Notes: generated from the letters alone by a model not told the origin. A stretch of 64,000 nt of DNA from Candidatus Peregrinibacteria bacterium (GCA_003153355.1 PLYH01000003.1:38325-102324), one strand, 5' to 3'; positions 14,333 to 42,204 are shown, counted from the stretch's first letter. Numbers and translations are program-made.

Positions 14333-15991
14333 ATGGCAGATCCTATCAAACTCGATGATTCGGGAAATACTTCCGGCTCATCGCCAAAAATCAATCTCGG
14401 TTCGCCTTCCATCGATAACGGCGGAAGCATGGGCAATATTTTTACCCAGAACCAAGCCAAAAAGGACGATTCAAAAATGATCTCTTCGATCATTTCGCAA
14501 AAGGAAGTTGCGCAAAAAACAAAATCGATCCTCGGTCCCGCTCCAACGCTGGAAAAAACAATCGAGCAGGAAAAAGAGGCTTCACTCAAACGCAAACTTC
14601 GCTTTTATCAGTTTGTTTTCCTGGTGCTCTTCGTTGCATGCGCCGCGATGTCGTTTTATTTTTATTCGGAACTTTCTCCGGATTTTACACTGCTGGGCGC
14701 CAACACGACTCAGCGGTTATCCGACACCAATGACAATCTCCGCCAGGTCCAGACTCAGGTGAGCAAAGACCAATATCTGGCCGCACAGCTTCAACTCAAC
14801 GAATTCAGTTATGAAGCCGACCGGTTTTTCAGCAGCGTTCAGAAAGTGAACGATCCGACGATCAATTCGTTCGATAAACGGACAATTTTCGCGGACCTCG
14901 ATGAATCGCAAAAAGCTCTGCCGGTGTTGCTCGGCAATGTGCGAGACCTTTTGAGCAAAGACATCATTGCACAAACCTATCCGACAGAAAAAGAACCCCA
15001 GCTCGACCAGAACGTGATACTCCAAAACGCTCAAACCGATTTACGAAACGCTTTAAGCGATGAAAAGAAAAAATACGGGCAGAATCCGACCAATGCCCAG
15101 GATATTCAGGATGTAAAATTGATCGATAATGCCATGAAACTTGTCGGCAACATCAACCTGCAGAACGTCCTTCAGGCAACCTCTTCCGACGCTTTACAGA
15201 CACAGTTAAACGATTATGTTCAAAATCCGGATCCTCAAAAATTACAGGCGCTTCAGGATGCGATCGGAAAAATTCTTTCTTCAACCAAAAGCGATCTGGC
15301 GACGATAGCGAACATCAAACAAAGCCGCATTCAGTGGTCAACGATCATCAGCCAAATTAAAGAGGTTACGCTGACGATTGATCCGAATTTTGACCAGCAG
15401 CAATTGTATGATGCGCTGGGAGGAGTCGTCTATACCGGCTACGAATTTGACTCCAACAGCAATAAGATCGTTCTTTCCGGAACAACCAAAACGCTCGACG
15501 GTTCCAATTTTACATTGATGAGTAACCTGATCGATCGTCTGGAAAGCTCGCCATATTTCCAGTCTGTTGATATGCGTTCATTTTCCAAGAGCAAGCCCGC
15601 ATCGGGTTCAGGTTCGGGATACCTGGCAAACTTCAAGATTGATCTGAGTCTGGAACCTCAGGGCACTTCAAATACAAACAACGCTCCGGTAAGCCTTCAA
15701 AATACTTCATCCGCTGCTCAGACCGGAACAAAGCGAACAACAGGCACAGATACTTCAACTCAACAATCAACAGTCGCTCCCGGAGCAGTGACATCGAGCG
15801 AGCAAAGTACATTGAACGGAGCAGCAATCCAGCCTTCTTCCGTGTCGTCTGGAGGATCCGCATCGGCACCGGTCTCGCCAGCTGCACCGACATCAACTGC
15901 GGCTGCGGCTTCGTCTGCTTCCTCACAGCAAACATCTGACTCAGGCGCGTCATCCTCAGTACCTGCGGGGACTCAACAAGTTTCTTCTTAA
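14333..15991 (+). CDS. bitopic membrane protein, possible PilN-like pilus assembly component, with S/T/A/Q-rich tail
   Basis: First gene of the pilB-pilC-pilin operon. Roughly 95-aa cytoplasmic N-terminus, a single TM (FYQFVFLVLFVACAAMSFYFY), then a coiled-coil-like ectodomain. The last roughly 120 aa are low complexity. Confidence 0.4.
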   Translation: MADPIKLDDSGNTSGSSPKINLGSPSIDNGGSMGNIFTQNQAKKDDSKMISSIISQKEVAQKTKSILGPAPTLEKTIEQEKEASLKRKLRFYQFVFLVLFVACAAMSFYFYSELSPDFTLLGANTTQRLSDTNDNLRQVQTQVSKDQYLAAQLQLNEFSYEADRFFSSVQKVNDPTINSFDKRTIFADLDESQKALPVLLGNVRDLLSKDIIAQTYPTEKEPQLDQNVILQNAQTDLRNALSDEKKKYGQNPTNAQDIQDVKLIDNAMKLVGNINLQNVLQATSSDALQTQLNDYVQNPDPQKLQALQDAIGKILSSTKSDLATIANIKQSRIQWSTIISQIKEVTLTIDPNFDQQQLYDALGGVVYTGYEFDSNSNKIVLSGTTKTLDGSNFTLMSNLIDRLESSPYFQSVDMRSFSKSKPASGSGSGYLANFKIDLSLEPQGTSNTNNAPVSLQNTSSAAQTGTKRTTGTDTSTQQSTVAPGAVTSSEQSTLNGAAIQPSSVSSGGSASAPVSPAAPTSTAAAASSASSQQTSDSGASSSVPAGTQQVSS

Positions 15992-16009
15992 TTCAATCAG
16001 CATAAAACT

Positions 16010-16693
16010 ATGGCAACAGCTACCCTCCTCAAACGCAATTACGCCAAAAGCATCCGTACGTATATGATGCTCATTCTGGTTACGGCTGCCGTCGGTCTTT
16101 ATTACGGCTATACGCAGTACACGAAACTTTCCGCGGCCCAGGACGCTCTTTCGAAAGAACAGAGCCAAATTACGGATCTGCAAAGTACCGAATCACAAGC
16201 CAGCGCTGATTACACGACTTTAAAGCAGGATTTTGATCAAAAATATTCGGGTATTCTGGATTCGCTCCAGGCCGTTTATCCGCTTCAGGAAAATTATACG
16301 GACCTCACCCGTCTTTTTGATCAGTTTTTCCAAACAAACAATACTTCTTATAATCCTGTTTTTCTGAGCGACCTGAAGTTCGGGGAGCCGCGTTATGACG
16401 CGGCTGTGGATTATGCAGTTCTCCCGGTCACCATGACCATCTCCGGCACTGAAGATAATTTCATGAAATTTCTGCAGTTTGTGGAAAACTCCGGCGTTCT
16501 CGCCGATAAAACACGTTTGATGGATGTCCGTTCCATCAGCATTAACTTTACTTCAAATGCTTCAACGGTTTCACAGAACACCATTCCGGGACAGACTCCG
16601 GCAACGGCCACGCAGCCGATGATCAATGTTTCGGTCGGTCTGAACGCTTACTTCCAGAAACCTTTCCTTCAAACTACTCCGAAGACCTCTTAG
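16010..16693 (+). CDS. bitopic membrane protein, possible PilO-like pilus assembly component
   Basis: One N-terminal TM (MMLILVTAAVGLYYGY) followed by a coiled-coil segment. Operon position is immediately upstream of pilB. Confidence 0.35.
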   Translation: MATATLLKRNYAKSIRTYMMLILVTAAVGLYYGYTQYTKLSAAQDALSKEQSQITDLQSTESQASADYTTLKQDFDQKYSGILDSLQAVYPLQENYTDLTRLFDQFFQTNNTSYNPVFLSDLKFGEPRYDAAVDYAVLPVTMTISGTEDNFMKFLQFVENSGVLADKTRLMDVRSISINFTSNASTVSQNTIPGQTPATATQPMINVSVGLNAYFQKPFLQTTPKTS

Positions 16694-16726
16694 TAAACCC
16701 TCAACGGCGCAAGTTCCTCATTTCTT

Positions 16727-17983
16727 ATGGCTGATCAACAGAAATTACAACTCCTTCAAGACGCGATTTTAGCGGGAAATATTCCGCAGCTCGTTTTGAA
16801 CATGATCAGTTATGCTTTGGAACTCCGTGCTTCAGATATTCACGTTGAGCCCGAACAAAATACGATCCGCATCCGCTACCGCGTTGACGGCGTGCTCCGT
16901 CAGATCGTCGAATATCCGCACAATATTCACCCGGCCGTTGTTTCGCGCATTAAGATTATGTCGAACATGAAGATTGATGAACAACGCGTTCCGCAGGACG
17001 GAAGATGTGAAGTAACGACCAAAGACGCACGGGAAATGGATCTGCGCGTTTCAACGCTTCCCACTATTAATGGAGAAAAGATCGTGATGCGTATCCAGGA
17101 CCGCTCAAGAAAAATTCCGGATCTGAGCGAACTCGGCATGCAGGGTAACAGTCTGAAGTTTTTTAAAGAAGCTCTGGAACTGCCGAACGGCATTATTTTA
17201 ACTACCGGTCCAACGGGTTCAGGAAAAACCACCACGATGTATTCGGCACTGGACACTTTGAACCGCATTGAAGTGAACATTCTAACAATTGAAGATCCGG
17301 TGGAAATCCAGATGGACGGTTTGAATCAGAGTCAGGTTCATCCGGACATTGATTATACCTTTGCCAACGGCTTACGTACGGCTTTGCGTCAGGATCCGAA
17401 CATCATCATGGTCGGAGAAATCCGCGACAAGGAAACCATTGATATCGCGATTGAAGCTTCATTGACGGGTCATCTGGTGCTTTCAACCATTCATACGAAC
17501 AGCGCGGTCGAAACCTTAACGCGTATTGATAACATGGGCGTTCAGCCTTTTTTGATGGTTGAGACGATTGAATTGATCATCGCTCAGCGTCTTGTCCGCA
17601 AACTCTGCGACAATTGCAAAATTCCTCAAGACAACGTTCATCCCGACATCATGGCGCTGGTGCAGAAAGCGCTCGAAAATCTTCATTCCACCGATGAAAT
17701 CGGACCGGAAGAGCTCAAGGCCATGAAATTTTATAAAGCCGTGGGCTGTGAACAGTGCGATAAAATCGGTTACCGCGGACGTCTCGGTCTTTATGAAATT
17801 ATGCGCATGAACAATGAAATCCGCAGACTCATCCTTGCCCGCGCTTCTTCCATCGACATTGAAAAAGCCGCACTCAAAAACGGCATGGTCAATCTTGAAC
17901 AGGCCGGAATCATCAAAGCTTTAAAAGGTGAAACGAGTCTGGACGAAGTATACCGCGTCGCAAAACGCATGGAAGAATATTAA
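16727..17983 (+). CDS. pilB: type IV pilus assembly ATPase (GspE/PilB family, short form)
   Basis: Walker A GPTGSGKTTT, Asp box and Walker B (IMVGEIRD), His box (TGHLVLSTIHTN), and the tetracysteine motif CDNC...CEQC typical of GspE/PilB. At 418 aa it lacks the long N-terminal domain. Confidence 0.9.
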   Translation: MADQQKLQLLQDAILAGNIPQLVLNMISYALELRASDIHVEPEQNTIRIRYRVDGVLRQIVEYPHNIHPAVVSRIKIMSNMKIDEQRVPQDGRCEVTTKDAREMDLRVSTLPTINGEKIVMRIQDRSRKIPDLSELGMQGNSLKFFKEALELPNGIILTTGPTGSGKTTTMYSALDTLNRIEVNILTIEDPVEIQMDGLNQSQVHPDIDYTFANGLRTALRQDPNIIMVGEIRDKETIDIAIEASLTGHLVLSTIHTNSAVETLTRIDNMGVQPFLMVETIELIIAQRLVRKLCDNCKIPQDNVHPDIMALVQKALENLHSTDEIGPEELKAMKFYKAVGCEQCDKIGYRGRLGLYEIMRMNNEIRRLILARASSIDIEKAALKNGMVNLEQAGIIKALKGETSLDEVYRVAKRMEEY

Positions 17984-18010
17984 AAATTACGAATTACTAA
18001 TTCAAAGGAT

Positions 18011-19297
18011 ATGCCAGAAAAACAAGCCCAGGGCTTTGGACAAGCAGACAAAGGTCAAACCTTTACCATCAACGGACAGAACGCCGAAGCCGGTTCCGAG
18101 CAGGAAGGTAAACAGATCGTGCTGAATATTGCCCAGACCAGCGGCGGCAAAGTTTTGCTCAGACAAAAAGCCAGCTACGTAAAGTATTCCGGCAATGTTC
18201 TTGTAGATACGTACCGCCGCATAAACGATTTTTTCATTGATCATTCCAGCGTAAAAATCCGCGACAAAGCCACATTTTTCCGTCTGCTGGCCGTGATGAT
18301 TAATTCCGGATTACCTTTGATCAGGTCTTTGCGGACTTTGGCGGTCCAGCAGGCAAAAAGCCCTAAACTTGCGCGCACGCTGTATGAAATGGCCACGGCG
18401 ATCGAAGCCGGAAAAAGCCTTTCAGAAGCCATGTCCGGCTATCCCGAAATTTTCAATGAAGCGCAGGTCGGTATGATCCACGCGGGTGAAGCTTCCGGAC
18501 AATTGAACAAAACCTTACGCGAACTTGCGGAAAGCGTTGAAAAAACAGCAAGTATAACATCAAAAATCCGCGGTGCACTTATTTATCCGGCAGCCATTCT
18601 TGTGCTGCTCGTCATCGTTATTTTTGTGATGATGATTGCGGTTATTCCTCAAATGACCAAACTTTTTGCCCAGACCGGACACGATTTACCTCTGCCGACG
18701 CAAATTCTGATCGCAGTGAGCAATTTCTGTTCCACATACTGGCCGATCGTCCTTTTAGTTTCTACCGCGCTTGTGGTGGGAACCGTTCTCTGGATCCACA
18801 CCCGCACGGGGAAATATATGTGGGATTACATGCTTATTAAACTGCCGATTTTCGGTCAGCTGATTCAAAAAGCCACGCTTTCAAGATTTTCACGCTCGCT
18901 GAGCAGCCTTATGAGCAGCGGCGTTCCTATTATTAAAGCCATCGAAATCACGGCAAATGCCGTAGGCAATGAAGTGTATAAAAGACGCCTGGTTTTAACA
19001 GCAGAAGATATGCGCCGCGGTATTCCGATGGCGGAAAATATGGCTGAAAGTAAACTTTTCCCGACGATGCTCGTAAACATGATCGAAGTCGGCGAACAGA
19101 CCGCCCAGCTGGAAAGCGTCACTTTAAAAGTCGCGGAATTTTACGATGAAGAGGTGGATACGGTCGTAGCAGCCCTGACCAAAGTTATGGAACCCCTTAT
19201 TATAGTTGTCATTGGTATTACGGTAGGCGGGATGGTCGCAGCGATCATGCTTCCGATCATTGAACTTACCAATATTACGGGCGGATTTACTTCATAG
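18011..19297 (+). CDS. pilC: type IV pilus platform protein (GspF/PilC family)
   Basis: Duplicated T2SS-F domains (GEASGQLNKTL... and IEVGEQTAQLESV...) and three hydrophobic TM blocks. Confidence 0.9.
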   Translation: MPEKQAQGFGQADKGQTFTINGQNAEAGSEQEGKQIVLNIAQTSGGKVLLRQKASYVKYSGNVLVDTYRRINDFFIDHSSVKIRDKATFFRLLAVMINSGLPLIRSLRTLAVQQAKSPKLARTLYEMATAIEAGKSLSEAMSGYPEIFNEAQVGMIHAGEASGQLNKTLRELAESVEKTASITSKIRGALIYPAAILVLLVIVIFVMMIAVIPQMTKLFAQTGHDLPLPTQILIAVSNFCSTYWPIVLLVSTALVVGTVLWIHTRTGKYMWDYMLIKLPIFGQLIQKATLSRFSRSLSSLMSSGVPIIKAIEITANAVGNEVYKRRLVLTAEDMRRGIPMAENMAESKLFPTMLVNMIEVGEQTAQLESVTLKVAEFYDEEVDTVVAALTKVMEPLIIVVIGITVGGMVAAIMLPIIELTNITGGFTS

Positions 19298-19311
19298 TTT
19301 CGCTGAGACAC

Positions 19312-19341
19312 TTGATTTTTGAGCCTAAAACATGGTATAGT
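19312..19341 (+). promoter_or_regulatory. putative strong promoter of the pilin gene
   Basis: TTGATT (19312-19317), an 18-nt spacer including TG, then TATAGT (19336-19341). Extended -10 TGGTATAGT. Located in the 100-nt gap after pilC. Confidence 0.5.
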
Positions 19342-19396
19342 ATATGGAAAGAAGAGAAATTTAATTTTACAAATAATAAATATTAACCCAAAAAAA

Positions 19397-19915
19397 ATGA
19401 CAAATCCTCACTCCCTGAAAGGTTTTACCCTCATTGAACTTTTGATCGTTATTACGATCATCGGTATCTTGGCTGTTGCGCTTTTACCATCGGTACTCGG
19501 AGCTCCGGCACGCGCCCGTGATGCTGCACGCAAGGCTGATTTGAATAACATTATTGCGGGACTTGAAACCTACGACAGTGACCACCAAGGTTATCCAGCT
19601 GCTGTTAGCCCAACTGGAGATTGCGTACAGGATATGGCAGGTATTGCAAATTATTTCCAAGGCGGAAAAGCACCGGTTGATCCTCAAGGTAAAGGTCTTA
19701 AAACATGTACAGGAGCACCTTTAACTGGCAGTTATGTTTATTGCCAACTTTCAGGCAATCCGGCAAATTATGTCATTATTGCACAAATGGAAGTTCAGGG
19801 AGATGCGAACAGCACTACTCTTGCAGCACCTTTATCTTGCAGCTCTACTGGAACAGCTCCGGCATTGGTTACTCCAACTTCTGCTGCTCCTTGGTATTAT
19901 ATTTTAACGAAGTAA
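19397..19915 (+). CDS. type IV pilin (prepilin with class III signal peptide)
   Basis: MTNPHSLKG|FTLIELLIVITIIGILA is the canonical G|F(T)LIE cleavage/methylation motif with Glu+5. Cys residues lie in the C-terminal half. The ORF-track start 19319 lies upstream of the predicted promoter. Confidence 0.85.
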   Translation: MTNPHSLKGFTLIELLIVITIIGILAVALLPSVLGAPARARDAARKADLNNIIAGLETYDSDHQGYPAAVSPTGDCVQDMAGIANYFQGGKAPVDPQGKGLKTCTGAPLTGSYVYCQLSGNPANYVIIAQMEVQGDANSTTLAAPLSCSSTGTAPALVTPTSAAPWYYILTK

Positions 19916-19932
19916 TTCTTCCTTCGATTCCT

Positions 19933-19961
19933 AAAGCCCCGCATTCGGCGGGGCTTTTTTG
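19933..19961 (+). terminator. rho-independent terminator after the pilin gene
   Basis: GCCCCGC / GCGGGGC stem, ATTCG loop, then TTTTTT. Confidence 0.8.
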
Positions 19962-19966
19962 TTGTC

Positions 19967-20275
19967 TCAGTTTTCGAGTTTGGTGATGCGCTGTTCGTGG
20001 TTTTGCAATTTGGTATTTATCGGCTTTAGATAGTCAAAAATTTGACTGAAAAGCTTGTCATGTCCTTCAAGTTTTTCATCAATGTGACTAAAACGCTTTC
20101 TCACTTCCGCCTGAAAAACTGCGGCATCACCGGCAAGCTGGTCGATCATATTTCCGACCTCCAGACTCATTAAAACGAATCGTTCATCGATTTGCTCGAA
20201 GCGCTTGTCGATCATTTTGAATTTCGGATCAAGAGCTTCAACGATTTGCTGGAGATCTTTTTTTGTTAATGTCAT
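19967..20275 (-). CDS. hypothetical coiled-coil protein (102 aa)
   Basis: Clean ORF with heptad-like charged composition. I recognise no family. Confidence 0.45.
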   Translation of the reverse strand: MTLTKKDLQQIVEALDPKFKMIDKRFEQIDERFVLMSLEVGNMIDQLAGDAAVFQAEVRKRFSHIDEKLEGHDKLFSQIFDYLKPINTKLQNHEQRITKLEN

Positions 20276-20571
20276 AAATTCTATTCAATGATTATTACTG
20301 CCATTAAAACAAAAGAAAATGAAGGGTTTTTAAACTGAATCTTAAGTTTTCTTAAAATTCCGGGATGAGTTTTCAAAATAAACTTTTTTTCATGGGACTC
20401 AAGGTTTCTTTTGGAAAAAGTTTTGACGGTTTTGGTGTTCATGGAGTGATCTTTTTTGGGTCAAAAAATGTAGCCAAAAAACTATTTTATAAGCTGTCAA
20501 TTTGAACTTGACCGAAATAGAGGTTTTTTGATCTGCTGGCCGCTTTTTCGATCCTAAAAAATGTGTTTTTC

Positions 20572-20580
20572 TGCTAAAAT
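20572..20580 (+). promoter_or_regulatory. putative extended -10 element (TGCTAAAAT) upstream of the giant gene
   Basis: TGnTAAAAT lies 29 nt before ATG 20609, at the end of a 333-nt intergenic region. Confidence 0.3.
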
Positions 20581-20608
20581 ATAAAGAAATAAAAACAAAA
20601 CCTACGAG

Positions 20609-35600: not shown

Positions 35601-37438
35601 ATACCACCGCCTTGTTTAAAGGCGCCCATATTAAAGATGATAATGGTTTTGACCAGTTCCAATTCAATAAGATCCCGACTAATGATCCAAGCTTCCCGGG
35701 TGGAACAGAAATTATTGATACAACAACTAAACAGAGAGCAGCTGTTCTTGATACCGGCGGCAATTTCTATCCTTATGACAGCCATTTGAGCCTTCAGCTT
35801 CAAGATACTTCCGACTTGAGTGATCCGCTCGTTATCGAAATACTTTATACAAAAGATGCTTCAACGCCTCCGGCAATTATCGGCGAGTTCAATATTGCCG
35901 TTCACAGCAATAAAGGCGTACAGATTTTATCTTCGGATAAATTCCAGACGTACACGGCACAAAATTCCCAACCGCTGCCTCAGCCGCCGAAGGTGCAGAC
36001 GATAGCGCCGGTTCCTGCGCTGCCTCAGCCGGCTCCGTTTAATGACGTGAACCCGACTACTCCGGATTACCAAAGCATCTTAAATCTTTACCAGAGACAT
36101 GTCCTTGATGATCTGCTGGGATCATCGGCCAATAAAGCTGCATTCGGCCCTGATGTTCCTCTGCTCCGTTCTGAATTTGCGGACATCATGCTGAAAATTT
36201 TCTGTATCGTTCCGAGAACGGAAGCTTACCAGTCGCCTCCTGCATTTACCGATATTCCATATGTTCAGGGAAACTTGCCTTGGTATTATGCCGTGACAAA
36301 AGAAGCTTATTTCCGCGGATTTATTACAGGATATAAAGCTGAAATTGATCCTACCACCGGTAAAACACCGTTCAAACCTGATGCAAATATCAGCAGAGCG
36401 GAAGCTGTCAAAATCATTCTTGAAGCTTTGCAGAAACAGGGCGTGATTGATATGGGACAAGTTCCGGTCGTTGCTCCTTACTATGCTCCGTATATCCAGA
36501 TTGCCCAGGATCTTACGCCTTACCTTAAAGAAAAGAGCCTTGTCAGCCAGCCTTATATTATTACGGCGGACGAAGCAACGAAGCCTGATGAGATTCTTAC
36601 AAGAAGCGAATTTATCGCCATGGCGGACCGTGTCCTCAAAGCTTACGACTGTTATACGGGCGGCAGCTCTTTCATCAACAGCATAACGCCGAATGTCGGA
36701 CCAAGTTCCGGCGGAACTGCAGTTACCATCAGCGGCGCTAATTTTTCACCGAATTCCACACTGACTTTCAACGGCGTTCCTGCCGATAATGTAAAAATTA
36801 TAAACTCAACAACAATCCAGGCTGATTCTCCTGCTCAATCCGGCCCCGGACCTGCGGATGTCGTTGTCACCAATCCAAATTCTGCGTCAACGGTGTTAAA
36901 AAATGGTTTCACGTATCAAGGTTGCAGTCCAAAAGTGAGCAGTATAACTCCGAATTCCGGACCGATGCCGGGAGGTACCGTCATAACCGTTAAGGGCTCC
37001 TGTTTCAATGATCAAACGGCACTTGATCTTCAATCAAAAGGTAATGGCTTACCTGCTCATGTGACGAAAGTTGTTGTTTTGAACAGTACGACGATCGTCG
37101 CAGAAACACCGCCTGATGTCACAGCTGGTCCGGCTGATCTGATTGCTACAAATCCTAACTTCCCGCCAGATACGTTTAACAATGGTTACACCTATACAAC
37201 ACCTCCGGCTGAAAATAATGTTGATCCTCGGCAAAACCTTGGCGAAGGCATCTATGTCATACAGCCGCAATGTAATGTATGTCCTTGTCCTTCAACCATC
37301 GATCACACCGCGGACATTATTCCAGGCGACAAACTTTTTGCGGTAATTTCCAATGACGACAATTCTCAAATCTTCAGCAAGAGTAACGTCGTTGAAATTA
37401 CCGCCATTCCCGAAACCCCTCCAGTAACCGCCGAATAA
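20609..37438 (+). CDS. giant secreted, SLH-anchored multidomain surface protein (5,609 aa)
   Basis: A single uninterrupted 16,830-nt ORF. Sec signal peptide (h-region [22 protein letters not shown]|AP). The modular content is listed as sub-features below. All antisense ORFs are short or repeat-driven. Confidence 0.92.
25485..26130 (+). other. first SLH (S-layer homology) triplet inside the giant protein
   Basis: [42 protein letters not shown] is a textbook SLH motif. Two further degenerate copies follow (FPDKNITSS...ISGY...ITHAEA and FVDPSVG...ITRTEFA). Confidence 0.7.
26150..26685 (+). repeat. array of thrombospondin type 3-like Ca-binding repeats (three roughly 60-aa super-repeats)
   Basis: Recurrent DxDGDGLxDxxE and TDPxxxDTDGGGxxDGxEVxxGTNPLDPxDD units. 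The similarity is also visible at DNA level. Confidence 0.8.
26800..28080 (+). other. four consecutive bacterial Ig-like (invasin/Big_1-type) domains
   Basis: Four roughly 95-aa units. Each starts with an ADG/SSxAD-type strand (for example [20 protein letters not shown]) and ends with a G.A...I.A......I.V.A pattern. Confidence 0.55.
29180..29600 (+). other. FG-GAP/VCBS-type repeats
   Basis: [38 protein letters not shown] and [23 protein letters not shown]. Confidence 0.7.
29995..30270 (+). other. DUF11-like (conserved repeat) beta-sandwich domain
   Basis: [32 protein letters not shown]...[15 protein letters not shown] resembles the DUF11 repeats of the gene at 61573..64000. Confidence 0.5.
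30668..31010 (+). other. Cys/Gly/Pro-rich hydrophobic module of unknown type
   Basis: [108 protein letters not shown]. Eight Cys in about 115 aa and almost no charged residues. Confidence 0.6.
31850..32590 (+). other. amphipathic/hydrophobic helices flanking a Leu-Pro repeat tract
   Basis: [14 protein letters not shown]...[11 protein letters not shown]...[13 protein letters not shown] comes first. A roughly 100-aa tract of (I/L)P-x-(L/I)P repeats follows ([59 protein letters not shown]). It ends with [18 protein letters not shown]. Confidence 0.6.
33846..34030 (+). other. possible fibronectin type III-like segment
   Basis: The pattern [24 protein letters not shown] is typical of FN3 strands B-C. 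Only part of the domain is recognisable. Confidence 0.35.
34780..35150 (+). other. PKD-like domain interrupted by TSP3-like Asp-rich loops
   Basis: [24 protein letters not shown]...[11 protein letters not shown]...[11 protein letters not shown]...[24 protein letters not shown]. Confidence 0.45.
36038..36650 (+). other. second SLH triplet inside the giant protein
   Basis: [23 protein letters not shown]...[10 protein letters not shown]; [30 protein letters not shown]...[11 protein letters not shown]; and a third copy ending [14 protein letters not shown]. Confidence 0.7.
36672..37200 (+). other. two IPT/TIG domains
   Basis: [34 protein letters not shown]...[11 protein letters not shown]...[10 protein letters not shown] and [21 protein letters not shown]...[11 protein letters not shown]...[10 protein letters not shown]. 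Confidence 0.75.
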
Positions 37439-37450
37439 TTCCGCAAAATA

Positions 37451-37459
37451 TGCTATAAT
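37451..37459 (+). promoter_or_regulatory. perfect extended -10 element (TGCTATAAT) 8 nt before the first cassette gene
   Basis: TGCTATAAT at 37451-37459 and ATG at 37468. No SD lies between them. It sits in the 29-nt gap after the giant gene stop. Confidence 0.4.
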
Positions 37460-37467
37460 AAAAAGAT

Positions 37468-38085
37468 ATGAAAAAGCTGATCCCACAATTCAAATTTAAG
37501 CCTCTCACCATGACGGTGATCCTGGCTATGGTGCTGTTTTTCGGAAACTCGCTCCGTCCGACCGAGGCTCAGGTTGCCGCACCTCCGGTTCCATATCCTG
37601 TTGCTCCGGCGGTTGGCGATACAACCGCAGCAAACAACGCCTGCGCTCCGGCAATGGCTGATTTTTCATCAAAACTGCTTGCTGATTTCCGGACATTTTT
37701 GGATACGAATTTCCAGAATAAAGCATCCACCTCGTCGTTGCTTGGAGTTGCCATGGCCAAATACACCCAGATGCGCGATCAACTCTATACGGCCTGGGGC
37801 CAATACTTTCCGAATCAGGGCGTTCCACTCGCCACCAGCGGCGTTCAGCCGGGACAATGTTTACAGATTGTGAACCAGACTCTTTCCGATGCCCAGATTC
37901 TTTTAAGAGACCACGCAGTTCGGACTTCGGGTGTGAAAAAATCCACGGCGCTGCTGGAAAAATATCAGCAGATTAACGCCGAGCTCGCCAATTTATACCA
38001 ACAGTTTGTTTATATGCAGGGATATTTGAATAGTTTTTCCAATAAACTGCCCTGCTACGTCAAAAAGAATTGCGTCAAAGGTTAA
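37468..38085 (+). CDS. secreted protein of unknown family (205 aa), cassette gene 1
   Basis: Signal peptide (TMTVILAMVLFFG...TEA|Q), helical Q/L-rich body, C-terminal CYVKKNC. Confidence 0.7.
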   Translation: MKKLIPQFKFKPLTMTVILAMVLFFGNSLRPTEAQVAAPPVPYPVAPAVGDTTAANNACAPAMADFSSKLLADFRTFLDTNFQNKASTSSLLGVAMAKYTQMRDQLYTAWGQYFPNQGVPLATSGVQPGQCLQIVNQTLSDAQILLRDHAVRTSGVKKSTALLEKYQQINAELANLYQQFVYMQGYLNSFSNKLPCYVKKNCVKG

Positions 38086-38086
38086 T

Positions 38087-38929
38087 ATGAAAAAATATCT
38101 TCCTACAATCAGTCTGTTTGTTCTGGGAATACTCCTCGTCTCGATGAGTGCGATGGTGTTTACCTCTAAAGCACAACAAGCGAATCTGAAAAACCCCTAT
38201 GATTCAGGAACTTTAGGCGTGGACGATATTATCGATACCTATAACAACAACATCAACAAGGCGTTCAACAACTACATCAAACTGATGATGACGAATATGC
38301 AGACGAATCCCGATGATCCGAACGGCAAGCCTTTTCATGCCGACGGAACTCCATTCAGTGTTTCCGACTGCTTTAACAGTCCTCAGAACTACAGCACGTT
38401 TTGCGTGGCCGCTAATTTGCTGGGAGGCAATTCGGATGATTGCCCAGCTGTAACGAAGGATAAAACGACTCCGCTTTCCGAAGGCATGGACGCCTTCTGC
38501 CAACTCGGCGGTAATGCTCTGCCTTTGCAGGGATATATGAATTTCATCGCGGCTTTAAAAAAGCGCACACAAAATATTTTCGATACGCAGGCTGATCAGC
38601 AGTGCTTTATTTCAAAGGTTCCGGTCGCCGGTCCGGTTGTCGGAAAATCTTTGTGTTCCACATCAGCATTTTTTGGTTCAATTCCTCTCATCAATCAAAT
38701 CGTAAAAAGAAAAACCGATATCAATCAGGCCATGGATACTGCAAAAAAAGCTCTGGACCAGACTCTTTCCGCGTATGATCAATTGAAAATCGCATGGCCC
38801 ATTCATTTGAAGTACATAAAAATTTATGCCGATCTGGAAAAATACCGCGACAAGATTGTGGACATCCGCCACCAGACGGACATCTTCCCGAAGAAATTTA
38901 TCGATCTTACCACCACGGCCTGCACCTAA
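38087..38929 (+). CDS. secreted Cys-rich protein of unknown family (280 aa), cassette gene 2
   Basis: Signal peptide (ISLFVLGILLVSMSAMVFTSKA|Q), 8 Cys in the mature part, ends ...TTTACT. The start is 2 nt after the previous stop. Confidence 0.7.
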   Translation: MKKYLPTISLFVLGILLVSMSAMVFTSKAQQANLKNPYDSGTLGVDDIIDTYNNNINKAFNNYIKLMMTNMQTNPDDPNGKPFHADGTPFSVSDCFNSPQNYSTFCVAANLLGGNSDDCPAVTKDKTTPLSEGMDAFCQLGGNALPLQGYMNFIAALKKRTQNIFDTQADQQCFISKVPVAGPVVGKSLCSTSAFFGSIPLINQIVKRKTDINQAMDTAKKALDQTLSAYDQLKIAWPIHLKYIKIYADLEKYRDKIVDIRHQTDIFPKKFIDLTTTACT

Positions 38930-38933
38930 ACCT

Positions 38934-40775
38934 ATGATGAAAAAATTTCTCTACACGATAGGCTTTCTGATGTTTTCCTCTGCACTGTTCAGTCCACTGA
39001 TCAGCGGTACGGCTTTGGGCCAAAGTACGGGAAATGCCGGGAAGGGTGTCGTTGATAATTCCACCTGGGTTGCACCGGCCCTCCAGCTTAATATTCCCGA
39101 TAAAGACTGGTCGGCAACTTTCGGTGAAACCGATCCGACACAGGTCGGGCAGGATCTTTATACAATGGTTTACAACAAAATGAACGTTGCTCCGTCTCAA
39201 AAGGCTTTTAAAGACACGACCGGCGCTTATGGAGCGACGCAGTCTGACATGGTGCGGCTTCTGAATAATGATTTTAGTCCGATTCTGGCCAAAAGTCCTT
39301 ATCTGACCCAGGCTCAGGCCATCAAAAAAATGCAGGAAATTCAGCAGCACTATCAGCAGGACATGGCTGTGCAGTCCGTTCAGGCCGATATTGATGCCGA
39401 AGTCACTCCCAATGAAATTTTCGAGAACGGCGATACGTCCGATTCGGGTTTTGATCTGATTAACGATCTCAATAATATTGAAAATATTCTTTTCAAAAAA
39501 ATGGACCCGATCGATGTCGGCGGGAATTTCAACGGCAGCTCCAGCGGCGGCAGCGGAACAACCGGCGGCGGTGCGAACAATTCAAGCACAAACGGCCCGG
39601 CCTCGACCTCTTCCGGATCTACGTCTGGCGGCGGCACCACCACCGGTTCAACATCAAGTCCTCTGACCGGGAGCGGAAGTCAGCAAGTGACCGGCACTCA
39701 ACCCGGTGGAACTCAGGAAGTTTCAACTTCCGGAATAGGACCCGCACCAAGTGCAGCCGATAATCCAAATATCTGTTTCGGCAACCAGCAGCTTAATCAA
39801 GCTCTTGATGCTTTTAACACTCAGCAGTCTTCTGATCCCCGTTTTAAAGAAACGCCGACGGTAACTCCGCCAGCGCCGGCGCCTGCGCCTGCACCGGCAC
39901 CATCGCCGTCACCATCACCAAGTCCGGGTCCATCACCGTCACCGACTCCTTCACCAAGTCCGAGTCCGACGCCACAACCTGCTCCTACTCCGCCTCCTCC
40001 ATTTACCTATAATCCCCCATCTACTCCGGCGGTTCAACCGGCCCCTGCAGCCAACTGGCTGCAAGCGCCTCCTTGCGGCCAGGTCATGTGCATACAGGTA
40101 AATTTTGTTATGACAACCGCTTCGGCCTACACCGATTCGGACAACTGCATCGCCTGCCATATTGAAAAAATCAACGAAAAACTCAAAGCGACCATTAACC
40201 ACAGTCTGATTCCCGGCAAAGCAACGGGAAATCTGATCGAACCCGGAATCTGTAAATCAGCTACCGCAGATCTGATCGGATCACTGAATATGCGTTTCTT
40301 TGCGATTTCCAAACCTGTAAAAACGCCGATCAACGATGATCTCATTTACGGCACCAACACCGTCGATGAATGGAATAAATTCCTCACGACCTATAAACCT
40401 TTCCCTTTTTACTCGATGAATGTTCCTGATCCAAAGAACAAAACCCAGGATACATTCATTCCAACGGTTCCGGACAGTGCGGCGAAAGCGGCCGTTATGT
40501 ATTCAACTCCTGACACCACTCTTGGACAAATCAGTGCCGGCATCCAACAGCAGATTACGGCTACGGCGAATCATGTCGCACAGGCGGCCACGGTTTATGA
40601 CGCTTCGATCAAAACGGATTCCGACAGCAGTTTCCTCCAGTCCATCCAGAAGGAACTTGACCAAATGAACTACTACTTTGACAGTTTCCAGAATATTCTC
40701 GCAAGCATTAACTCGACCTCCAGCGATAACCCCGGAGCCTGCCAAACCCTTGCCACTAAAAATGATTGCTCATAA
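38934..40775 (+). CDS. secreted protein of unknown family with G/S/T-rich and Pro-rich linkers (613 aa from ATG 38934), cassette gene 3
   Basis: MMKKFLYTIGFLMFSSALFSPLISGTALG|Q signal peptide begins at 38934. The ORF-track start 38826 overlaps the previous gene and encodes an R/T-rich non-signal stretch. C-terminal ACQTLATKNDCS. Confidence 0.7.
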   Translation: MMKKFLYTIGFLMFSSALFSPLISGTALGQSTGNAGKGVVDNSTWVAPALQLNIPDKDWSATFGETDPTQVGQDLYTMVYNKMNVAPSQKAFKDTTGAYGATQSDMVRLLNNDFSPILAKSPYLTQAQAIKKMQEIQQHYQQDMAVQSVQADIDAEVTPNEIFENGDTSDSGFDLINDLNNIENILFKKMDPIDVGGNFNGSSSGGSGTTGGGANNSSTNGPASTSSGSTSGGGTTTGSTSSPLTGSGSQQVTGTQPGGTQEVSTSGIGPAPSAADNPNICFGNQQLNQALDAFNTQQSSDPRFKETPTVTPPAPAPAPAPAPSPSPSPSPGPSPSPTPSPSPSPTPQPAPTPPPPFTYNPPSTPAVQPAPAANWLQAPPCGQVMCIQVNFVMTTASAYTDSDNCIACHIEKINEKLKATINHSLIPGKATGNLIEPGICKSATADLIGSLNMRFFAISKPVKTPINDDLIYGTNTVDEWNKFLTTYKPFPFYSMNVPDPKNKTQDTFIPTVPDSAAKAAVMYSTPDTTLGQISAGIQQQITATANHVAQAATVYDASIKTDSDSSFLQSIQKELDQMNYYFDSFQNILASINSTSSDNPGACQTLATKNDCS

Positions 40776-40778
40776 TAT

Positions 40779-41861
40779 ATGAAACACTTACGAAACCTTA
40801 CAATTGGGATGATGATTGCGGTCATGACAGTGACCCAGGTAGCTTTTGCCCAAACCGGAGATGCTTCCGGCAACGGCGGCGCAGTCGTTTGCCGCAACGG
40901 CGCCAGAGATTATGGCACTTTCCTTTCCTCGGTCATCAGCTACAACGGCTTTACCGAGTACTGGAAAGACATTATCGTCCGCTATAATCACAATATGTGT
41001 CTGTTTCTGGACATTGATAATCTTCTGAACCGGATTGATAAAACGCGTCAGCAGATCCGCAATGCCTTTTATACCTGCGACGCCAGCGCTCCGAAACTGC
41101 GTACTTTATATTATCAGCTTGAGGCCGAGCTTTTCTTTTTGCGCGATTATGTGGATTTTGATGATGACGGCAACATTATTTTCAAATCGCAAAACGTTAT
41201 CACGTCGGATTTCACCGATTACACCGTCAGTAAGATGAATTTCTTTTCCCCGGCAGATGCGCAAACTCTTTTGCAGACGCTCTTTGGCAAATATAACGCA
41301 AAAAAGGATGCGTACTTGAATTGCGCTGATCCGACGTGGGGCAATTTGATCCAGAAATGGAATGAGTTCAAGTCATCACTTGGCGGATTCACCGCGATTC
41401 AAGATGCCGCCGAAACGATCAGTAAACGCTGGGACGATGCGGTCAATACGCCTTTCAAGCGCACAGGAGGTTTGTTCGGAGGATTGCTCGATACCAAAAT
41501 CAACGGGCTTGATCCTGCAACGGCCTGGGGCGACATTTCCGCTGAACTCCAGAGAAATGCCATTTCTACGGTCCCGGTTTCTTCGGGTCAGATTGCAGCA
41601 GCAACTCAACAGGGCACATTAGGTTTTTCTTACGATAAATTTTTGCAAACTGCGGCTTCAGACGCCAGTCTTCATGATCAGGAACTTGAACGCACCCAAT
41701 TTTTAGCTCAGTACGGTCAAACTTACCAGCAAAGCTCCGCCAATATCGCACAAGCGATCATCGACAAAGTGAATGCCCTTGATACATCAATCCAGGCTAC
41801 TTTCCCATTAATTACTCAAACTTCCCAATGCGCCAAAACTGTTAACGGCAGGGTTTGCTAG
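40779..41861 (+). CDS. secreted protein of unknown family (360 aa), cassette gene 4
   Basis: Signal peptide (LTIGMMIAVMTVTQVAFA|Q), helical body, C-terminal QCAKTVNGRVC. The start is 3 nt after the previous stop. Confidence 0.7.
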   Translation: MKHLRNLTIGMMIAVMTVTQVAFAQTGDASGNGGAVVCRNGARDYGTFLSSVISYNGFTEYWKDIIVRYNHNMCLFLDIDNLLNRIDKTRQQIRNAFYTCDASAPKLRTLYYQLEAELFFLRDYVDFDDDGNIIFKSQNVITSDFTDYTVSKMNFFSPADAQTLLQTLFGKYNAKKDAYLNCADPTWGNLIQKWNEFKSSLGGFTAIQDAAETISKRWDDAVNTPFKRTGGLFGGLLDTKINGLDPATAWGDISAELQRNAISTVPVSSGQIAAATQQGTLGFSYDKFLQTAASDASLHDQELERTQFLAQYGQTYQQSSANIAQAIIDKVNALDTSIQATFPLITQTSQCAKTVNGRVC

Positions 41862-41885
41862 CAATTTTCATTTTCAGAGAGATTA

Positions 41886-41920
41886 AAAAAATCCCCAACG
41901 CAACGGTTGGGGATTTTTTG
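41886..41920 (+). terminator. rho-independent terminator closing the giant-gene/cassette unit
   Basis: 9-bp stem ATCCCCAAC / GTTGGGGAT followed by TTTTTTG. Confidence 0.8.
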
Positions 41921-42003
41921 TGCTTTTCTAGGGCCATAGGTGAGGTTTCTTCTGGAGCATTGATGTATAGCTCCATAGTTCCGCAATCGGAACGGCTGAA
42001 TCA

Positions 42004-42195
42004 TCAGCGGAGAACGAATGAGAAGATGGTTCCTTTGGTTCGTTCTTTTAATTGAGTCTTCTCTTTATTGTTAATGGAAACATGAGACCTTCCTTCCATT
42101 ATTTCAATAATCTCGGCGTTCGAAGTCCGGCAGTACATGCAGTTCGGACGTCTGCTGGAGATTGAGATACCGCAATTTGTGCAGTTAAATATCAT
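42004..42195 (-). CDS. small zinc-ribbon protein (63 aa)
   Basis: CxxC-x10-CxxC (CTNCGISISSRRPNCMYC) near the N-terminus. The start is 9 nt downstream of the HTH gene on the same strand. A competing 66-aa ORF on the + strand has no features. Confidence 0.4.
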   Translation of the reverse strand: MIFNCTNCGISISSRRPNCMYCRTSNAEIIEIMEGRSHVSINNKEKTQLKERTKGTIFSFVLR

Positions 42196-42204
42196 GTGAG
42201 ATTG

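What the first reader, a model, noticed from the sequence alone, without database searches (positions are those of the whole stretch)
14333..41920. Pilus operon, giant SLH-anchored gene and four-gene secreted cassette form one 27-kb same-strand block: candidate cell-contact apparatus
All of these lie on the + strand within 27 kb:
- The pilus assembly genes and the pilin.
- A 5,609-codon surface-protein gene, after one small opposite-strand ORF.
- Four signal-peptide genes separated by 2-29 nt, closed by a single strong terminator at 41886-41920.
I cannot assign the core of the giant protein or the cassette proteins to any named family. In small-genome, host-dependent bacteria, pili and giant surface proteins are the expected contact machinery; that is general knowledge. 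That these three units work together is my inference from adjacency and orientation only.
Basis: inference. Interest (0 to 1): 0.8.

Follow-up and report, generated by a model that had tools for sequence, protein, structure and literature searches.

The report
Pilus operon beside giant surface-protein operon
In a small-genome Peregrinibacteria bacterium, a type IV pilus operon sits next to a five-gene operon for a 5,609-residue wall-anchored surface protein and four secreted partners; this arrangement holds across the lineage and is a good but untested candidate for host-contact machinery.

Summary
On the + strand, 14333-41919 holds a pilus operon (PilN-like, PilO-like, PilB, PilC, pilin), a 5,609-codon gene, and four signal-peptide genes (gaps 29, 1, 4 and 3 nt) closed by a 14-bp-stem terminator.

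It is not one unit. A strong bidirectional terminator (19933-19957) follows the pilin, and 55 of 64 relatives have a similar hairpin there.

Relatives are Peregrinibacteria/Peribacteria MAGs (151 species-level genomes matched). The giant is followed by c1-c2-c3-c4 in every locus where the contig allows a check (34/34, 34/34, 32/32, 26/27). The pilus genes lie upstream in 40 of 43 loci.

Flanking housekeeping genes are about as syntenic (L7/L12|pilN-like 25/34; pilin|giant 55/66). Adjacency of pilus and giant is therefore weak evidence of shared function.

The giant has a Sec signal peptide, one internal SLH domain, a C-proximal SLH array, TSP3, Ig-like, FG-GAP and TIG domains. Its central module defines a family of at least 424 clusters, nearly all in 3,000-6,000-residue proteins. 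The module and all four cassette proteins match no Pfam or NCBIfam family, no PDB sequence and, for the module, no PDB fold.

Best reading: an SLH-anchored giant adhesin-like complex beside the pilus locus. Contact function is inferred only.

The parts
14333..15991 (+). PilN-like bitopic membrane protein (552 aa). It has one transmembrane segment at aa 94-112 and a Ser/Thr/Ala-rich tail. It has no PilM actin-like domain.
   Evidence: Weak PF05137 PilN hit at aa 378-438 (20.6 bits, below the 22.8 cut-off). Hydrophobicity scan. Always directly followed by the next gene in relatives, 34/34.
16010..16693 (+). PilO-like protein (227 aa), assigned by position and topology only.
   Evidence: No family above threshold. 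The junction with pilB is intact in 43 of 43 relatives.
16727..17983 (+). PilB-type assembly ATPase (418 aa). It lacks the N-terminal roughly 180 residues of canonical PilB.
   Evidence: PF00437 at E 6.6e-130. TIGR02538 at 510 bits, matching profile positions 180-563, below the equivalog cut-off of 675.
18011..19297 (+). PilC/GspF platform protein (428 aa).
   Evidence: PF00482, two copies, E 1.9e-53. TIGR02120 at E 2.6e-91.
19397..19915 (+). Major type IV pilin. The ORF opens at the TTG at 19319, but the likely start is the ATG at 19397, giving MTNPHSLKG|FTLIELL.
   Evidence: PF07963 N_methyl at E 7.6e-8 and TIGR02532. Sequence read.
19933..19957 (.). Bidirectional intrinsic terminator between the pilin (+) and the 102-aa ORF (-). 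It marks the end of the pilus transcription unit.
   Evidence: Hairpin of 10 pairs with 7 G-C pairs, an A run before it and a T run after it. A comparable hairpin lies 40-60 nt after the pilin stop in 55 of 64 relatives.
19967..20275 (-). Small coiled-coil ORF (102 aa) on the opposite strand. It is conserved only in the closest relatives.
   Evidence: tblastn hits at 34-43% identity in L005-L008 only. Translation.
20609..37438 (+). Giant Sec-exported surface protein (5,609 aa, 40 Cys, acidic). It is the first gene of a five-gene operon.
   Evidence: ORF. N-terminal signal peptide read from the sequence. Whole-length architecture is shared with the 150 listed representative proteins.
20780..21508 (+). 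Conserved N-terminal alpha/beta domain (aa 58-300), with no family.
   Evidence: Alignment A1, 51% mean column identity. AF2 model pLDDT 75. No significant Foldseek hit; the best is caspase-3 at E 0.019.
25487..25612 (+). Internal SLH domain (aa 1627-1668).
   Evidence: PF00395 at E 1.2e-15 and 7.1e-14 when scanned in a segment. PDB 8BZ2 SLH at E 1.7e-4.
26141..26638 (+). TSP3-type calcium-binding repeats (about aa 1845-2010).
   Evidence: PF18884, 5 stretches, E 2.7e-26.
26804..28075 (+). Four Ig-like domains (about aa 2066-2489) of the Invasin_D3/Big_1 and GH2_C5 types.
   Evidence: PF09134 and PF18565 hits.
29195..29413 (+). FG-GAP/VCBS repeats (aa 2863-2935), probably part of a beta-propeller.
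   Evidence: PF13517 at E 4.6e-13 and PF01839 at 1.1e-12.
30596..32788 (+). Central family-defining module (aa 3330-4060). In order it holds a Cys/Gly/Pro-rich hydrophobic part, long helices, a C-x2-C motif and an invariant Pro-rich [10 protein letters not shown] segment.
   Evidence: 424 representative clusters at E<=1e-3 and 263 at <=1e-30, nearly all 3,000-6,000 aa. Alignment A3 has 41 invariant columns, 8 of them Cys. No PDB sequence or fold match. AF2 model is poor, pLDDT 54.
36035..36628 (+). C-proximal SLH-type array (about aa 5143-5340), the presumed cell-wall anchor.
   Evidence: PF00395 at 26.4 bits for aa 5237-5266. A profile of aa 5178-5330 hits SLH modules 6CWC (E 2.3e-5, chain residues 36-145) and 3PYW. 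The same profile pulled unrelated SLH proteins from metagenomes (L118 onward).
36671..37228 (+). Two IPT/TIG Ig-like domains (aa 5355-5540).
   Evidence: PF01833, two stretches, E 2.1e-22.
37468..38085 (+). c1: secreted 205-aa protein with 4 Cys and a C-terminal C-x5-C motif. It is a distant paralog of c2.
   Evidence: Signal peptide read from the sequence. No family. hhalign of c1 against c2 gives 88.8% probability, E 2.5e-6. It follows the giant in 34 of 34 loci.
38087..38929 (+). c2: secreted 280-aa protein with 7 Cys.
   Evidence: The c1|c2 junction is intact in 34 of 34 loci.
38934..40775 (+). c3: secreted 613-aa protein with a Gly/Ser/Thr-rich and then Pro/Ser/Thr-rich linker and 8 Cys.
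   Evidence: Public gene call of 613 aa. The c2|c3 junction is intact in 32 of 32 loci.
40779..41861 (+). c4: secreted 360-aa protein with 6 invariant Cys.
   Evidence: 30 homologous clusters, all unnamed or labelled Patescibacteria. Alignment A5. No PDB relative. The c3|c4 junction is intact in 26 of 27 loci; the exception is a c3 split by a frameshift.
41886..41919 (+). Intrinsic terminator closing the giant-cassette operon.
   Evidence: Stem of 14 pairs, loop of 6, followed by a T run.

Best explanation
Two adjacent + strand transcription units are conserved throughout the Peregrinibacteria/Peribacteria.

Unit 1 (14333-19957) is a monoderm-style type IV pilus operon. It encodes a PilN-like protein, a PilO-like protein, the PilB ATPase, the PilC platform and the major pilin, and it ends at a conserved terminator.

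Unit 2 (about 20330-41919) is a five-gene operon.

- All five products are exported by Sec.
- The 5,609-residue product is held on the cell wall by its C-proximal SLH array, with a second internal SLH domain.
- It projects a long acidic, calcium-binding stalk made of TSP3 repeats, Ig-like and TIG domains and an FG-GAP propeller, capped by a conserved N-terminal alpha/beta domain.
- The four small cysteine-bearing proteins c1-c4 have no anchor of their own. They most likely assemble on the giant protein to form a surface fibril complex. The invariant central module is the best candidate docking site.
- The likely use is adhesion to another cell or surface, in the same process as the pilus.

Shown: gene content, export signals, SLH and adhesin-type domains, operon structure, lineage-wide co-occurrence of the giant with c1-c4, and frequent adjacency to the pilus operon.

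Inferred: assembly of c1-c4 on the giant, the docking role of the central module, the contact function, and cooperation with the pilus.
For: - Pilus gene identities.
- A terminator after the pilin in the window and in 55 of 64 relatives.
- Gaps of 1-29 nt and a single terminator for the giant plus c1-c4.
- Sec-type N-termini on all five products.
- SLH, TSP3, Ig-like, FG-GAP and TIG domains. The C-proximal region is confirmed as SLH against solved SLH modules.
- c1-c4 have no anchor domain and no family. They carry conserved cysteines.
- giant|c1|c2|c3|c4 is intact in 34/34, 34/34, 32/32 and 26/27 loci, down to about 22-35% identity.
- All four c4 homologs looked up lie in the same cassette next to a giant gene.
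- pilB and pilC lie upstream of the giant in 40 of 43 loci, and a pilin lies within 2.5 kb in 60 of 65.
- The central module is the most conserved part of the protein.
- Precedent: giant genes preceded by T2SS/T4P-like loci in Omnitrophota (10.1101/2023.11.21.568195). Large extracellular proteins and type IV pili were noted in Peribacteria (PMC4736985).
Against: - There are no expression, localisation or interaction data.
- The pilus and giant units are separated by a conserved terminator. In this window they are also separated by an opposite-strand gene.
- The pilin|giant junction (55/66) is no better conserved than L7/L12|pilN-like (25/34) or MiaA|L10 (12/16). The downstream housekeeping genes are equally syntenic. 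Adjacency may therefore simply reflect slow genome rearrangement.
- No structure could be obtained for the central module (pLDDT 54). Its docking role is a guess.
- hhalign found no relation between the cassette proteins and any part of the giant.
Confidence: 0.5

Rival explanations
1. The two units are independent neighbours. The pilus operon and the giant-cassette operon each do their own job, and they sit side by side only because gene order in this lineage is very stable.
For: - A conserved terminator lies between them.
- Junction conservation for pilin|giant (55/66) and pilC|pilin (38/54) is similar to that of the junctions with ribosomal and tRNA-modification genes (25/34 and 12/16).
- Downstream, HTH_17, UvrA and, where the loci reach that far, PrsW, RecF and ThrRS are also conserved.
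- Toxin-antitoxin-like and mobile-element-like genes insert freely between pilC, the pilin and the giant.
Against: - Both units encode envelope structures typically used for contact.
- The same pairing of a T2SS/T4P-like locus with a giant gene arose in unrelated Omnitrophota.
- When the region is rearranged, a pilin gene usually still lies next to the giant (L029, L037, L081).
Confidence: 0.3
2. The giant and c1-c4 are structural envelope components, such as an S-layer-associated scaffold or wall organiser, rather than a contact device.
For: - SLH domains are typical of S-layer and S-layer-associated proteins.
- The operon appears single-copy and is found across the lineage, and its central module is strongly conserved, as expected for a housekeeping structure.
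- Other SLH and DUF11 envelope genes lie in the same window.
Against: - A 5,609-residue protein with FG-GAP, TSP3, invasin-type Ig and TIG domains looks like a fibrillar adhesin, not a lattice subunit.
- The cassette proteins diverge fast. They are 22-35% identical in loci where UvrA is 73-76% identical. This fits exposed, interaction-driven proteins.
Confidence: 0.1
3. The Pil machinery acts as a type II secretion-like pseudopilus that pushes the giant and the cassette proteins through the wall or S-layer.
For: - PilB and PilC score nearly as well against GspE and GspF models.
- No PilT gene is present in the window.
- This was proposed for the Omnitrophota giant-gene loci.
Against: - All five proteins have ordinary Sec signal peptides.
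- No secretin or outer-membrane component is present.
- The pilin gene is a typical major pilin with its own terminator.
- No evidence bears on this directly.
Confidence: 0.05
4. c1-c4 are released effectors or toxins delivered to a host, and the giant is only their co-expressed adhesin.
For: They are secreted, have no anchor, evolve fast and are cysteine-stabilised.
Against: - They have no enzymatic or toxin signature in Pfam or NCBIfam and no PDB relative.
- Order and number are strictly fixed, with no gain, loss or shuffling, in 26-34 of the loci that could be checked. This is unlike effector arsenals.
Confidence: 0.05

Closest known systems
Giant genes preceded by type II secretion / type IV pilus-like loci in Omnitrophota (West-Roberts et al., bioRxiv 10.1101/2023.11.21.568195)
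   Same: An ultra-small, probably host-dependent bacterium carries a GspE/GspF/pilin-type locus immediately upstream of its giant surface-protein gene. The arrangement is conserved across the lineage, and the giant carries attachment-type domains.
   Different: - The phylum is different.
- The gene here is 16.8 kb, not 25 kb or more.
- Pfam detects no SecA DEAD-helicase domain and no multiple transmembrane regions.
- The pilus locus here has 5 genes, not more than 10.
- The invariant four-gene secreted cassette and the central module have no counterpart described there.
Fibrillar adhesins of monoderm bacteria (stalk of Ig-like repeats, adhesive domain and wall anchor; Monzon and Bateman, PMC9210967)
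   Same: A Sec signal peptide, Ig-like/TIG/TSP3 stalk elements, a wall anchor, very large size and fast sequence divergence.
   Different: - The anchor is SLH, not LPXTG-sortase.
- About half of the protein, including aa 300-1600 and the 730-residue central module, has no known domain.
- It comes with four dedicated secreted partners.
SLH-anchored scaffold proteins such as the cellulosome anchoring scaffoldins of Clostridium thermocellum (named from my own knowledge, not tested here)
   Same: A C-proximal SLH array anchors a very large modular protein, which in turn docks separately secreted partner proteins.
   Different: No cohesin or dockerin domains were detected. Docking of c1-c4 is only inferred.
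Type IV pilus tip or accessory adhesins (PilY1/PilC1 class; named from my own knowledge)
   Same: A large propeller-containing, calcium-binding protein is encoded next to pilus genes.
   Different: - The giant has its own Sec signal and SLH wall anchors.
- No minor pilin genes accompany it.
- No PilY1 family hit was found.
Large extracellular, strain-variable proteins and type IV pili noted in Ca. Peribacter riflensis (PMC4736985)
   Same: Same lineage and the same general inference of attachment to other cells.
   Different: In the passages I read, that paper does not describe this conserved locus, the central module or the four-gene cassette.

Membership tests
Type IV pilus / type IV filament assembly system | PilB/GspE-family assembly ATPase | tested here: met
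   PF00437 at E 6.6e-130. TIGR02538 scores 510 bits, below the equivalog cut-off because the N-terminal domain is missing.
Type IV pilus / type IV filament assembly system | PilC/GspF polytopic platform protein | tested here: met
   PF00482, two copies, E 1.9e-53.
Type IV pilus / type IV filament assembly system | Pilin with a class III signal peptide (G|F-x-x-x-E) | tested here: met
   PF07963 and TIGR02532 hits. The motif KG|FTLIELL is read in the sequence.
Type IV pilus / type IV filament assembly system | PilM/PilN/PilO alignment subcomplex | tested here: inconclusive
   The PilN hit is 20.6 bits against a cut-off of 22.8. No PilM domain was found. The PilO assignment rests on position and topology only.
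Type IV pilus / type IV filament assembly system | Prepilin peptidase (PilD) and retraction ATPase (PilT) | tested here: not met
   Neither was found among the window's ORFs of 150 aa or more scanned against Pfam. They may lie elsewhere in the genome, which could not be searched.
SLH-anchored cell-wall protein | SLH domain(s) above the family threshold | tested here: met
   PF00395 scores 57.7 bits at aa 1627-1668 and 26.4 bits at aa 5237-5266.
SLH-anchored cell-wall protein | A tandem SLH array homologous to solved SLH trimodules | tested here: met
   The profile of aa 5178-5330 hits 6CWC (SpaA SLH, chain residues 36-145) at E 2.3e-5 and 3PYW (Sap) at E 3.2e-5.
SLH-anchored cell-wall protein | Pyruvylated secondary cell-wall polymer and CsaB in the organism | not testable with these tools
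   The whole genome is not available.
Fibrillar adhesin | A stalk of repeated Ig-like or other rod-forming domains, plus an anchor | tested here: met
   Invasin_D3, GH2_C5-type Ig, TIG and TSP3 domains, with SLH as the anchor.
Fibrillar adhesin | An identifiable adhesive domain or demonstrated binding | tested here: inconclusive
   FG-GAP repeats are present. The N-terminal domain has no fold match. Binding was not tested.
Omnitrophota-type giant gene loci | Gene of 25 kb or more with SecA DEAD-helicase-like domains and transmembrane regions | tested here: not met
   The gene is 16.8 kb. There is no such Pfam hit, and the only hydrophobic segment is the signal peptide.
Omnitrophota-type giant gene loci | A T2SS/T4P-like locus conserved immediately upstream | tested here: met
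   pilB and pilC lie upstream of the giant in 40 of 43 loci.
T1SS-exported RTX giant adhesins (LapA/SiiE type) | C-terminal secretion signal, RTX repeats and adjacent ABC/MFP/TolC genes | tested here: not met
   The protein has an N-terminal Sec signal and no RTX family hit. The neighbours are pilus genes and secreted proteins of no known family.
Sortase-anchored surface protein | C-terminal LPXTG motif followed by a hydrophobic tail | tested here: not met
   The C-terminus reads ...[14 protein letters not shown], with no LPXTG and no hydrophobic tail.

The most novel reading that the evidence does not exclude
The invariant central module of the giant protein and the four secreted cassette proteins together form a previously undescribed extracellular machine. 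One possibility is a wall-anchored device that engages or opens the host envelope once pilus retraction has pulled the cells together. That would make it the feeding or contact organelle of Peregrinibacteria. The features that fit a machine core rather than a passive stalk are the Cys/Gly/Pro-rich hydrophobic segment, the long amphipathic helices and the invariant proline-rich stretch.
Probability: 0.1. Interest if true: 0.85.

Novelty: new variant of a known kind. Interest (0 to 1): 0.5.

Why it matters
How ultra-small, host-dependent CPR bacteria recognise and hold on to their hosts is largely unknown outside Saccharibacteria. No cultured Peregrinibacteria representative came up in my literature searches.

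This locus gives a concrete target that holds across the lineage:

- one giant SLH-anchored protein family with a unique central module (at least 424 clusters at 50% identity);
- four uncharacterised secreted protein families that always travel with it;
- a position next to the pilus genes.

If the complex mediates contact, its variable segments would be candidates for host specificity. Its invariant module would be a handle for antibodies, cryo-ET labelling or genetics. If instead it is just an envelope scaffold next to a pilus operon, it is an ordinary case of conserved synteny.

Tried and rejected
1. **The search for homologous proteins with the central module.** It gave 8,000 word-sharing candidates and no hit. 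With the N-terminal domain it returned only short fragments of 216-417 aa. No full-length giant was returned by either search. I therefore could not fetch both flanks of a giant gene in a single look-up, and took the upstream and downstream context from two separate scans.
2. **AlphaFold2 of the central module.** With 15 sequences it gave pLDDT 54 and pTM 0.34. Foldseek against the PDB gave nothing below E 1. No fold assignment was possible.
3. **N-terminal domain model.** pLDDT was 75. The best Foldseek hit was caspase-3 at E 0.019, which is not significant. The candidate catalytic His of the 'WHG' motif is Asp in this window. I rejected a gingipain- or caspase-like protease reading.
5. **Paralogy among c1-c4 and with parts of the giant.** Only c1 against c2 is supported.
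6. **Profiles of c1, c2, c3, c4 and the module against PDB sequences.** There were no hits.
7. **Rfam scan for a riboswitch ahead of the giant gene.** Nothing was found. The sub-threshold hits all fall on the terminator hairpin.
8. **The idea that the pilin is tied more tightly to the giant than to pilC.** The counts are 55/66 against 38/54. The difference is modest and partly follows from how I defined the pilin, so I do not claim it.
9. **T1SS-RTX adhesin, sortase-anchored adhesin and PilY1-type tip adhesin.** Each was considered and rejected on a defining feature.

Full report
**1. What is in the sequence**

The ORF map confirms every element of the finding.

- Five + strand genes occupy 14333-19915. 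Pfam and NCBIfam identify the third as a PilB/GspE-type ATPase (PF00437, E 6.6e-130) and the fourth as a PilC/GspF platform (PF00482, two copies, 1.9e-53). The fifth is a prepilin (PF07963, 7.6e-8; motif KG|FTLIELL).
- The first gene is a bitopic protein with only a sub-threshold PilN hit. The second has no family. I call them PilN-like and PilO-like from position and topology.
- PilB lacks the N-terminal third of canonical PilB. No PilD, PilT or secretin gene is in the window.
- A 102-aa coiled-coil ORF lies on the opposite strand at 19967-20275.
- The 5,609-codon gene runs 20609-37438.
- Four genes follow at 37468, 38087, 38934 and 40779, with gaps of 29, 1, 4 and 3 nt. A hairpin with a 14-pair stem and a T run lies at 41886-41919.
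- All five products begin with a standard Sec-type signal: a basic n-region, a hydrophobic core, and an Ala-x-Ala-like site followed by Gln or Ala.

**2.

A 10-pair, 7-GC hairpin at 19933-19957, flanked by an A run and a T run, sits 18 nt after the pilin stop codon. It is a bidirectional terminator for the convergent pilin gene and 102-aa ORF. The only sub-threshold Rfam matches in this interval are to terminator hairpins of unrelated sRNAs. The 27-kb block is therefore at least two transcription units. The first is the pilus operon. The second is a five-gene operon of the giant plus the cassette.

**3. The giant protein**

Pfam finds the following:

- an SLH domain at aa 1627-1668;
- five TSP3 calcium-binding repeats at about aa 1845-2010;
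- four Ig-like domains (Invasin_D3 and GH2_C5 types) at aa 2066-2489;
- FG-GAP repeats at aa 2863-2935;
- a second SLH match at aa 5237-5266;
- two TIG domains at aa 5355-5540.

A profile of aa 5178-5330, built from 15 family members, hits the solved SLH modules of Paenibacillus alvei SpaA (6CWC, E 2.3e-5, covering chain residues 36-145) and Bacillus anthracis Sap (3PYW). 'SLH-anchored' is therefore supported, and the main anchor lies near the C-terminus.

About half of the protein has no known domain. That half includes aa 58-300, aa 300-1600 and the central module. The protein has no internal transmembrane segment, no LPXTG motif and no RTX repeats.

**4. The central module**

An exhaustive HMMER search with aa 3301-4100 found 424 representative clusters (50% identity level) at E<=1e-3, and 263 at E<=1e-30. 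Nearly all are proteins of 3,000-6,000 residues.

BLAST of the whole giant against the 150 listed proteins shows that the full architecture is shared. The conserved stretches are the N-terminal domain, aa 1600-2000, aa 2300-4000 and aa 4700-5300. Poorly conserved stretches lie near aa 500-700, 1100-1300, 1500-1600, 4500-4650 and 5400-5500.

A 38-sequence alignment of aa 3330-4060 has 41 invariant columns. They include eight cysteines, a C-x2-C motif and an invariant proline-rich run ([16 protein letters not shown]).

The module has no relative among PDB sequences, either as a single sequence or as a profile. The AlphaFold2 model is poor (pLDDT 54) and Foldseek finds nothing. The N-terminal domain models as an alpha/beta fold (pLDDT 75) without a significant structural neighbour.

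**5. The cassette**

- None of c1-c4 matches Pfam or NCBIfam.
- Profiles of all four, each built from 21-27 orthologs, find nothing in the PDB.
- c1 and c2 are distant paralogs (hhalign 88.8%, E 2.5e-6). No cassette protein is related to any part of the giant.
- Each keeps conserved cysteines. c4 has six invariant ones, and c1 has a C-terminal C-x5-C. c3 has a long Gly/Ser/Thr-rich and then Pro/Ser/Thr-rich linker.
- None has an anchor domain.

**6. Who has it**

- c4 has 30 homologous clusters. The only source names given are 'Patescibacteria group bacterium'.
- A scan of one genome per GTDB species with the N-terminal domain found 151 matching stretches. The 80 loci kept are all from MAGs labelled Peregrinibacteria, Peribacteria, Gracilibacteria, Patescibacteria, Altimarinota or simply 'bacterium', several on contigs of 1.3-1.5 Mb.
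- The window's c4 protein is encoded on four contigs, two of them longer than 1 Mb, with the longest on record at 1.03 Mb.
- The organism is a Peregrinibacteria-type CPR bacterium that uses the standard genetic code.

**7.

*Downstream.* A metagenome scan with the C-proximal SLH region returned 33 true relatives. Iterated HMMs built from c1-c4 find c1, c2, c3 and c4 in that order directly after the giant in every one of them, as far as each contig reaches. With the three distinct loci reached through c4 homologs (L001, L003, L004), the junction counts are:

| Junction | Intact / checkable |
|---|---|
| giant\|c1 | 34/34 |
| c1\|c2 | 34/34 |
| c2\|c3 | 32/32 |
| c3\|c4 | 26/27 |

The one exception is a c3 split by a frameshift. 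No stray copy of any cassette gene occurs in the other 126 loci held at that point. This holds down to about 22-35% identity for the cassette proteins, in loci where UvrA is 73-76% identical.

*Upstream.* pilB and pilC lie within 8-10 kb upstream of the giant in 40 of 43 loci. A pilin lies within 2.5 kb in 60 of 65.

**8. How much the synteny is worth**

The same loci also conserve the flanking housekeeping genes: RecJ-MiaA-L10-L7/L12 upstream, and HTH_17, UvrA, PrsW, RecF and ThrRS downstream. Junction by junction:

| Junction | Intact / checkable |
|---|---|
| pilN-like\|pilO-like | 34/34 |
| pilO-like\|pilB | 43/43 |
| pilB\|pilC | 46/46 |
| pilC\|pilin | 38/54 |
| pilin\|giant | 55/66 |
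| L7/L12\|pilN-like | 25/34 |
| MiaA\|L10 | 12/16 |
| c4\|HTH_17 | 21/21 |
| HTH_17\|UvrA | 15/18 |

The pilus-giant junction is thus about as stable as the junctions with ribosomal-protein and tRNA-modification genes. The breaks that do occur are inversions (L037) or insertions of PIN-type, AbiE-like or other small genes, either between pilC and the pilin or between the pilin and the giant. A terminator-like hairpin lies 40-60 nt after the pilin stop codon in 55 of 64 relatives.

In short, the giant-cassette operon is an obligate unit. Its adjacency to the pilus operon is ancestral and common, but it is not demonstrably under selection.

**9. Most likely mechanism**

Shown:

- a type IV pilus operon of the kind found in monoderm bacteria;
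- next to it, a five-gene operon for Sec-exported proteins;
- the largest product carries SLH anchors and adhesin-type modules;
- its four partners are anchorless, cysteine-stabilised, fast-evolving and always co-inherited in fixed order.

Inferred:

- The giant is fixed to the wall polymer by its C-proximal SLH array and extends outward.
- c1-c4 assemble on it. The invariant central module is the obvious candidate platform.
- The complex mediates adhesion, plausibly together with the pilus.

I put this at about 0.5. Independent neighbours is the main rival at about 0.3. Lesser rivals are an envelope scaffold, T2SS-like export by the Pil proteins, and released effectors.

**10. Comparison with what is known**

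- The closest described arrangement is in Omnitrophota. [quoted passage not shown] The present locus differs in phylum, gene size, domain content and the fixed four-gene cassette.
- The Peribacteria genome paper noted large, strain-variable extracellular proteins and type IV pili, and suggested attachment. It did not describe this locus in the passages read (PMC4736985).
- Vampirococcus, in the sister lineage, likewise combines pili with giant membrane proteins (10.1101/2020.11.10.374967).
- The giant meets the operational features of a fibrillar adhesin (stalk plus anchor), but its adhesive domain is unidentified. It fails the defining features of RTX/T1SS adhesins, sortase substrates and Omnitrophota-type giants.

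**11. Verdict**

- The solid new facts are these: a lineage-wide five-gene operon, a large uncharacterised giant-protein family defined by a unique central module, and four uncharacterised secreted families tied to it.
- The 'single 27-kb apparatus' reading overstates the evidence.
- I rate it a new variant of a known kind (giant surface protein beside a pilus/T2SS-like locus in an ultra-small bacterium), with interest about 0.5.
- The most novel reading not excluded is that the module and the cassette form a new extracellular contact or feeding machine. I give this about 0.1.

Noticed in passing
window 42205-42669 (-): A small HTH_17 (PF12728) DNA-binding protein gene converges on the cassette terminator. 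It occupies this position in 21 of 21 relatives that reach far enough. It may be a regulator of the operon, or it may only be part of the general synteny.
   Followed up: partly
window 19933-20275: The terminator after the pilin is bidirectional and also serves a 102-aa coiled-coil ORF on the - strand. That ORF is conserved only in the four closest relatives, at 34-43% identity. L009 has a different repeat-rich coiled-coil ORF at the same place.
   Followed up: partly
window 58004-63993 (-): A second envelope gene cluster lies here. It holds two SLH proteins (332 and 347 aa, the latter with three SLH repeats), a 463-aa signal-peptide protein of no known family, and an 806-aa protein with four DUF11 domains that runs close to the window end.
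   Followed up: no
window 37468-38929: c1 and c2 are distant paralogs (hhalign probability 88.8%, E 2.5e-6 over 150 columns). Part of the cassette therefore arose by tandem duplication.
   Followed up: yes
L009, L057, L068 and L070, between the pilin or pilC and the giant gene: The intervals around the pilin gene are insertion hot spots in relatives. L009 carries repeated PIN-like genes. L068 and L070 carry a shared pair of conserved small genes that I took to be AbiE-like. L042 and L048 carry unrelated signal-peptide proteins of 490-730 aa.
   Followed up: partly
window 42001-44000: GC drops to 0.37, against 0.44-0.50 for the block, just downstream of the cassette. The region holds the HTH_17 gene, a 121-aa Cys-containing protein with a possible lipoprotein signal (43153-43518, -), and a 425-aa protein of no known family. 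That last protein is conserved only in close relatives.
   Followed up: no
window 21053-21061 (giant aa 149-151): The nearly universal 'WHG' motif of the N-terminal domain reads 'WDG' in this window. The His is therefore not essential, which argues against a catalytic role for it.
   Followed up: partly
window 2199-5288 (-) and 55543-57705 (-): Two further large ORFs (1,029 and 720 aa) have no Pfam match.
   Followed up: no
tool behaviour: the search for homologous proteins returned no full-length giant protein, even for the window's own sequence. It returned only fragments of 417 aa or less. Absence of hits from that tool should not be read as absence of homologs for very long proteins.
   Followed up: yes
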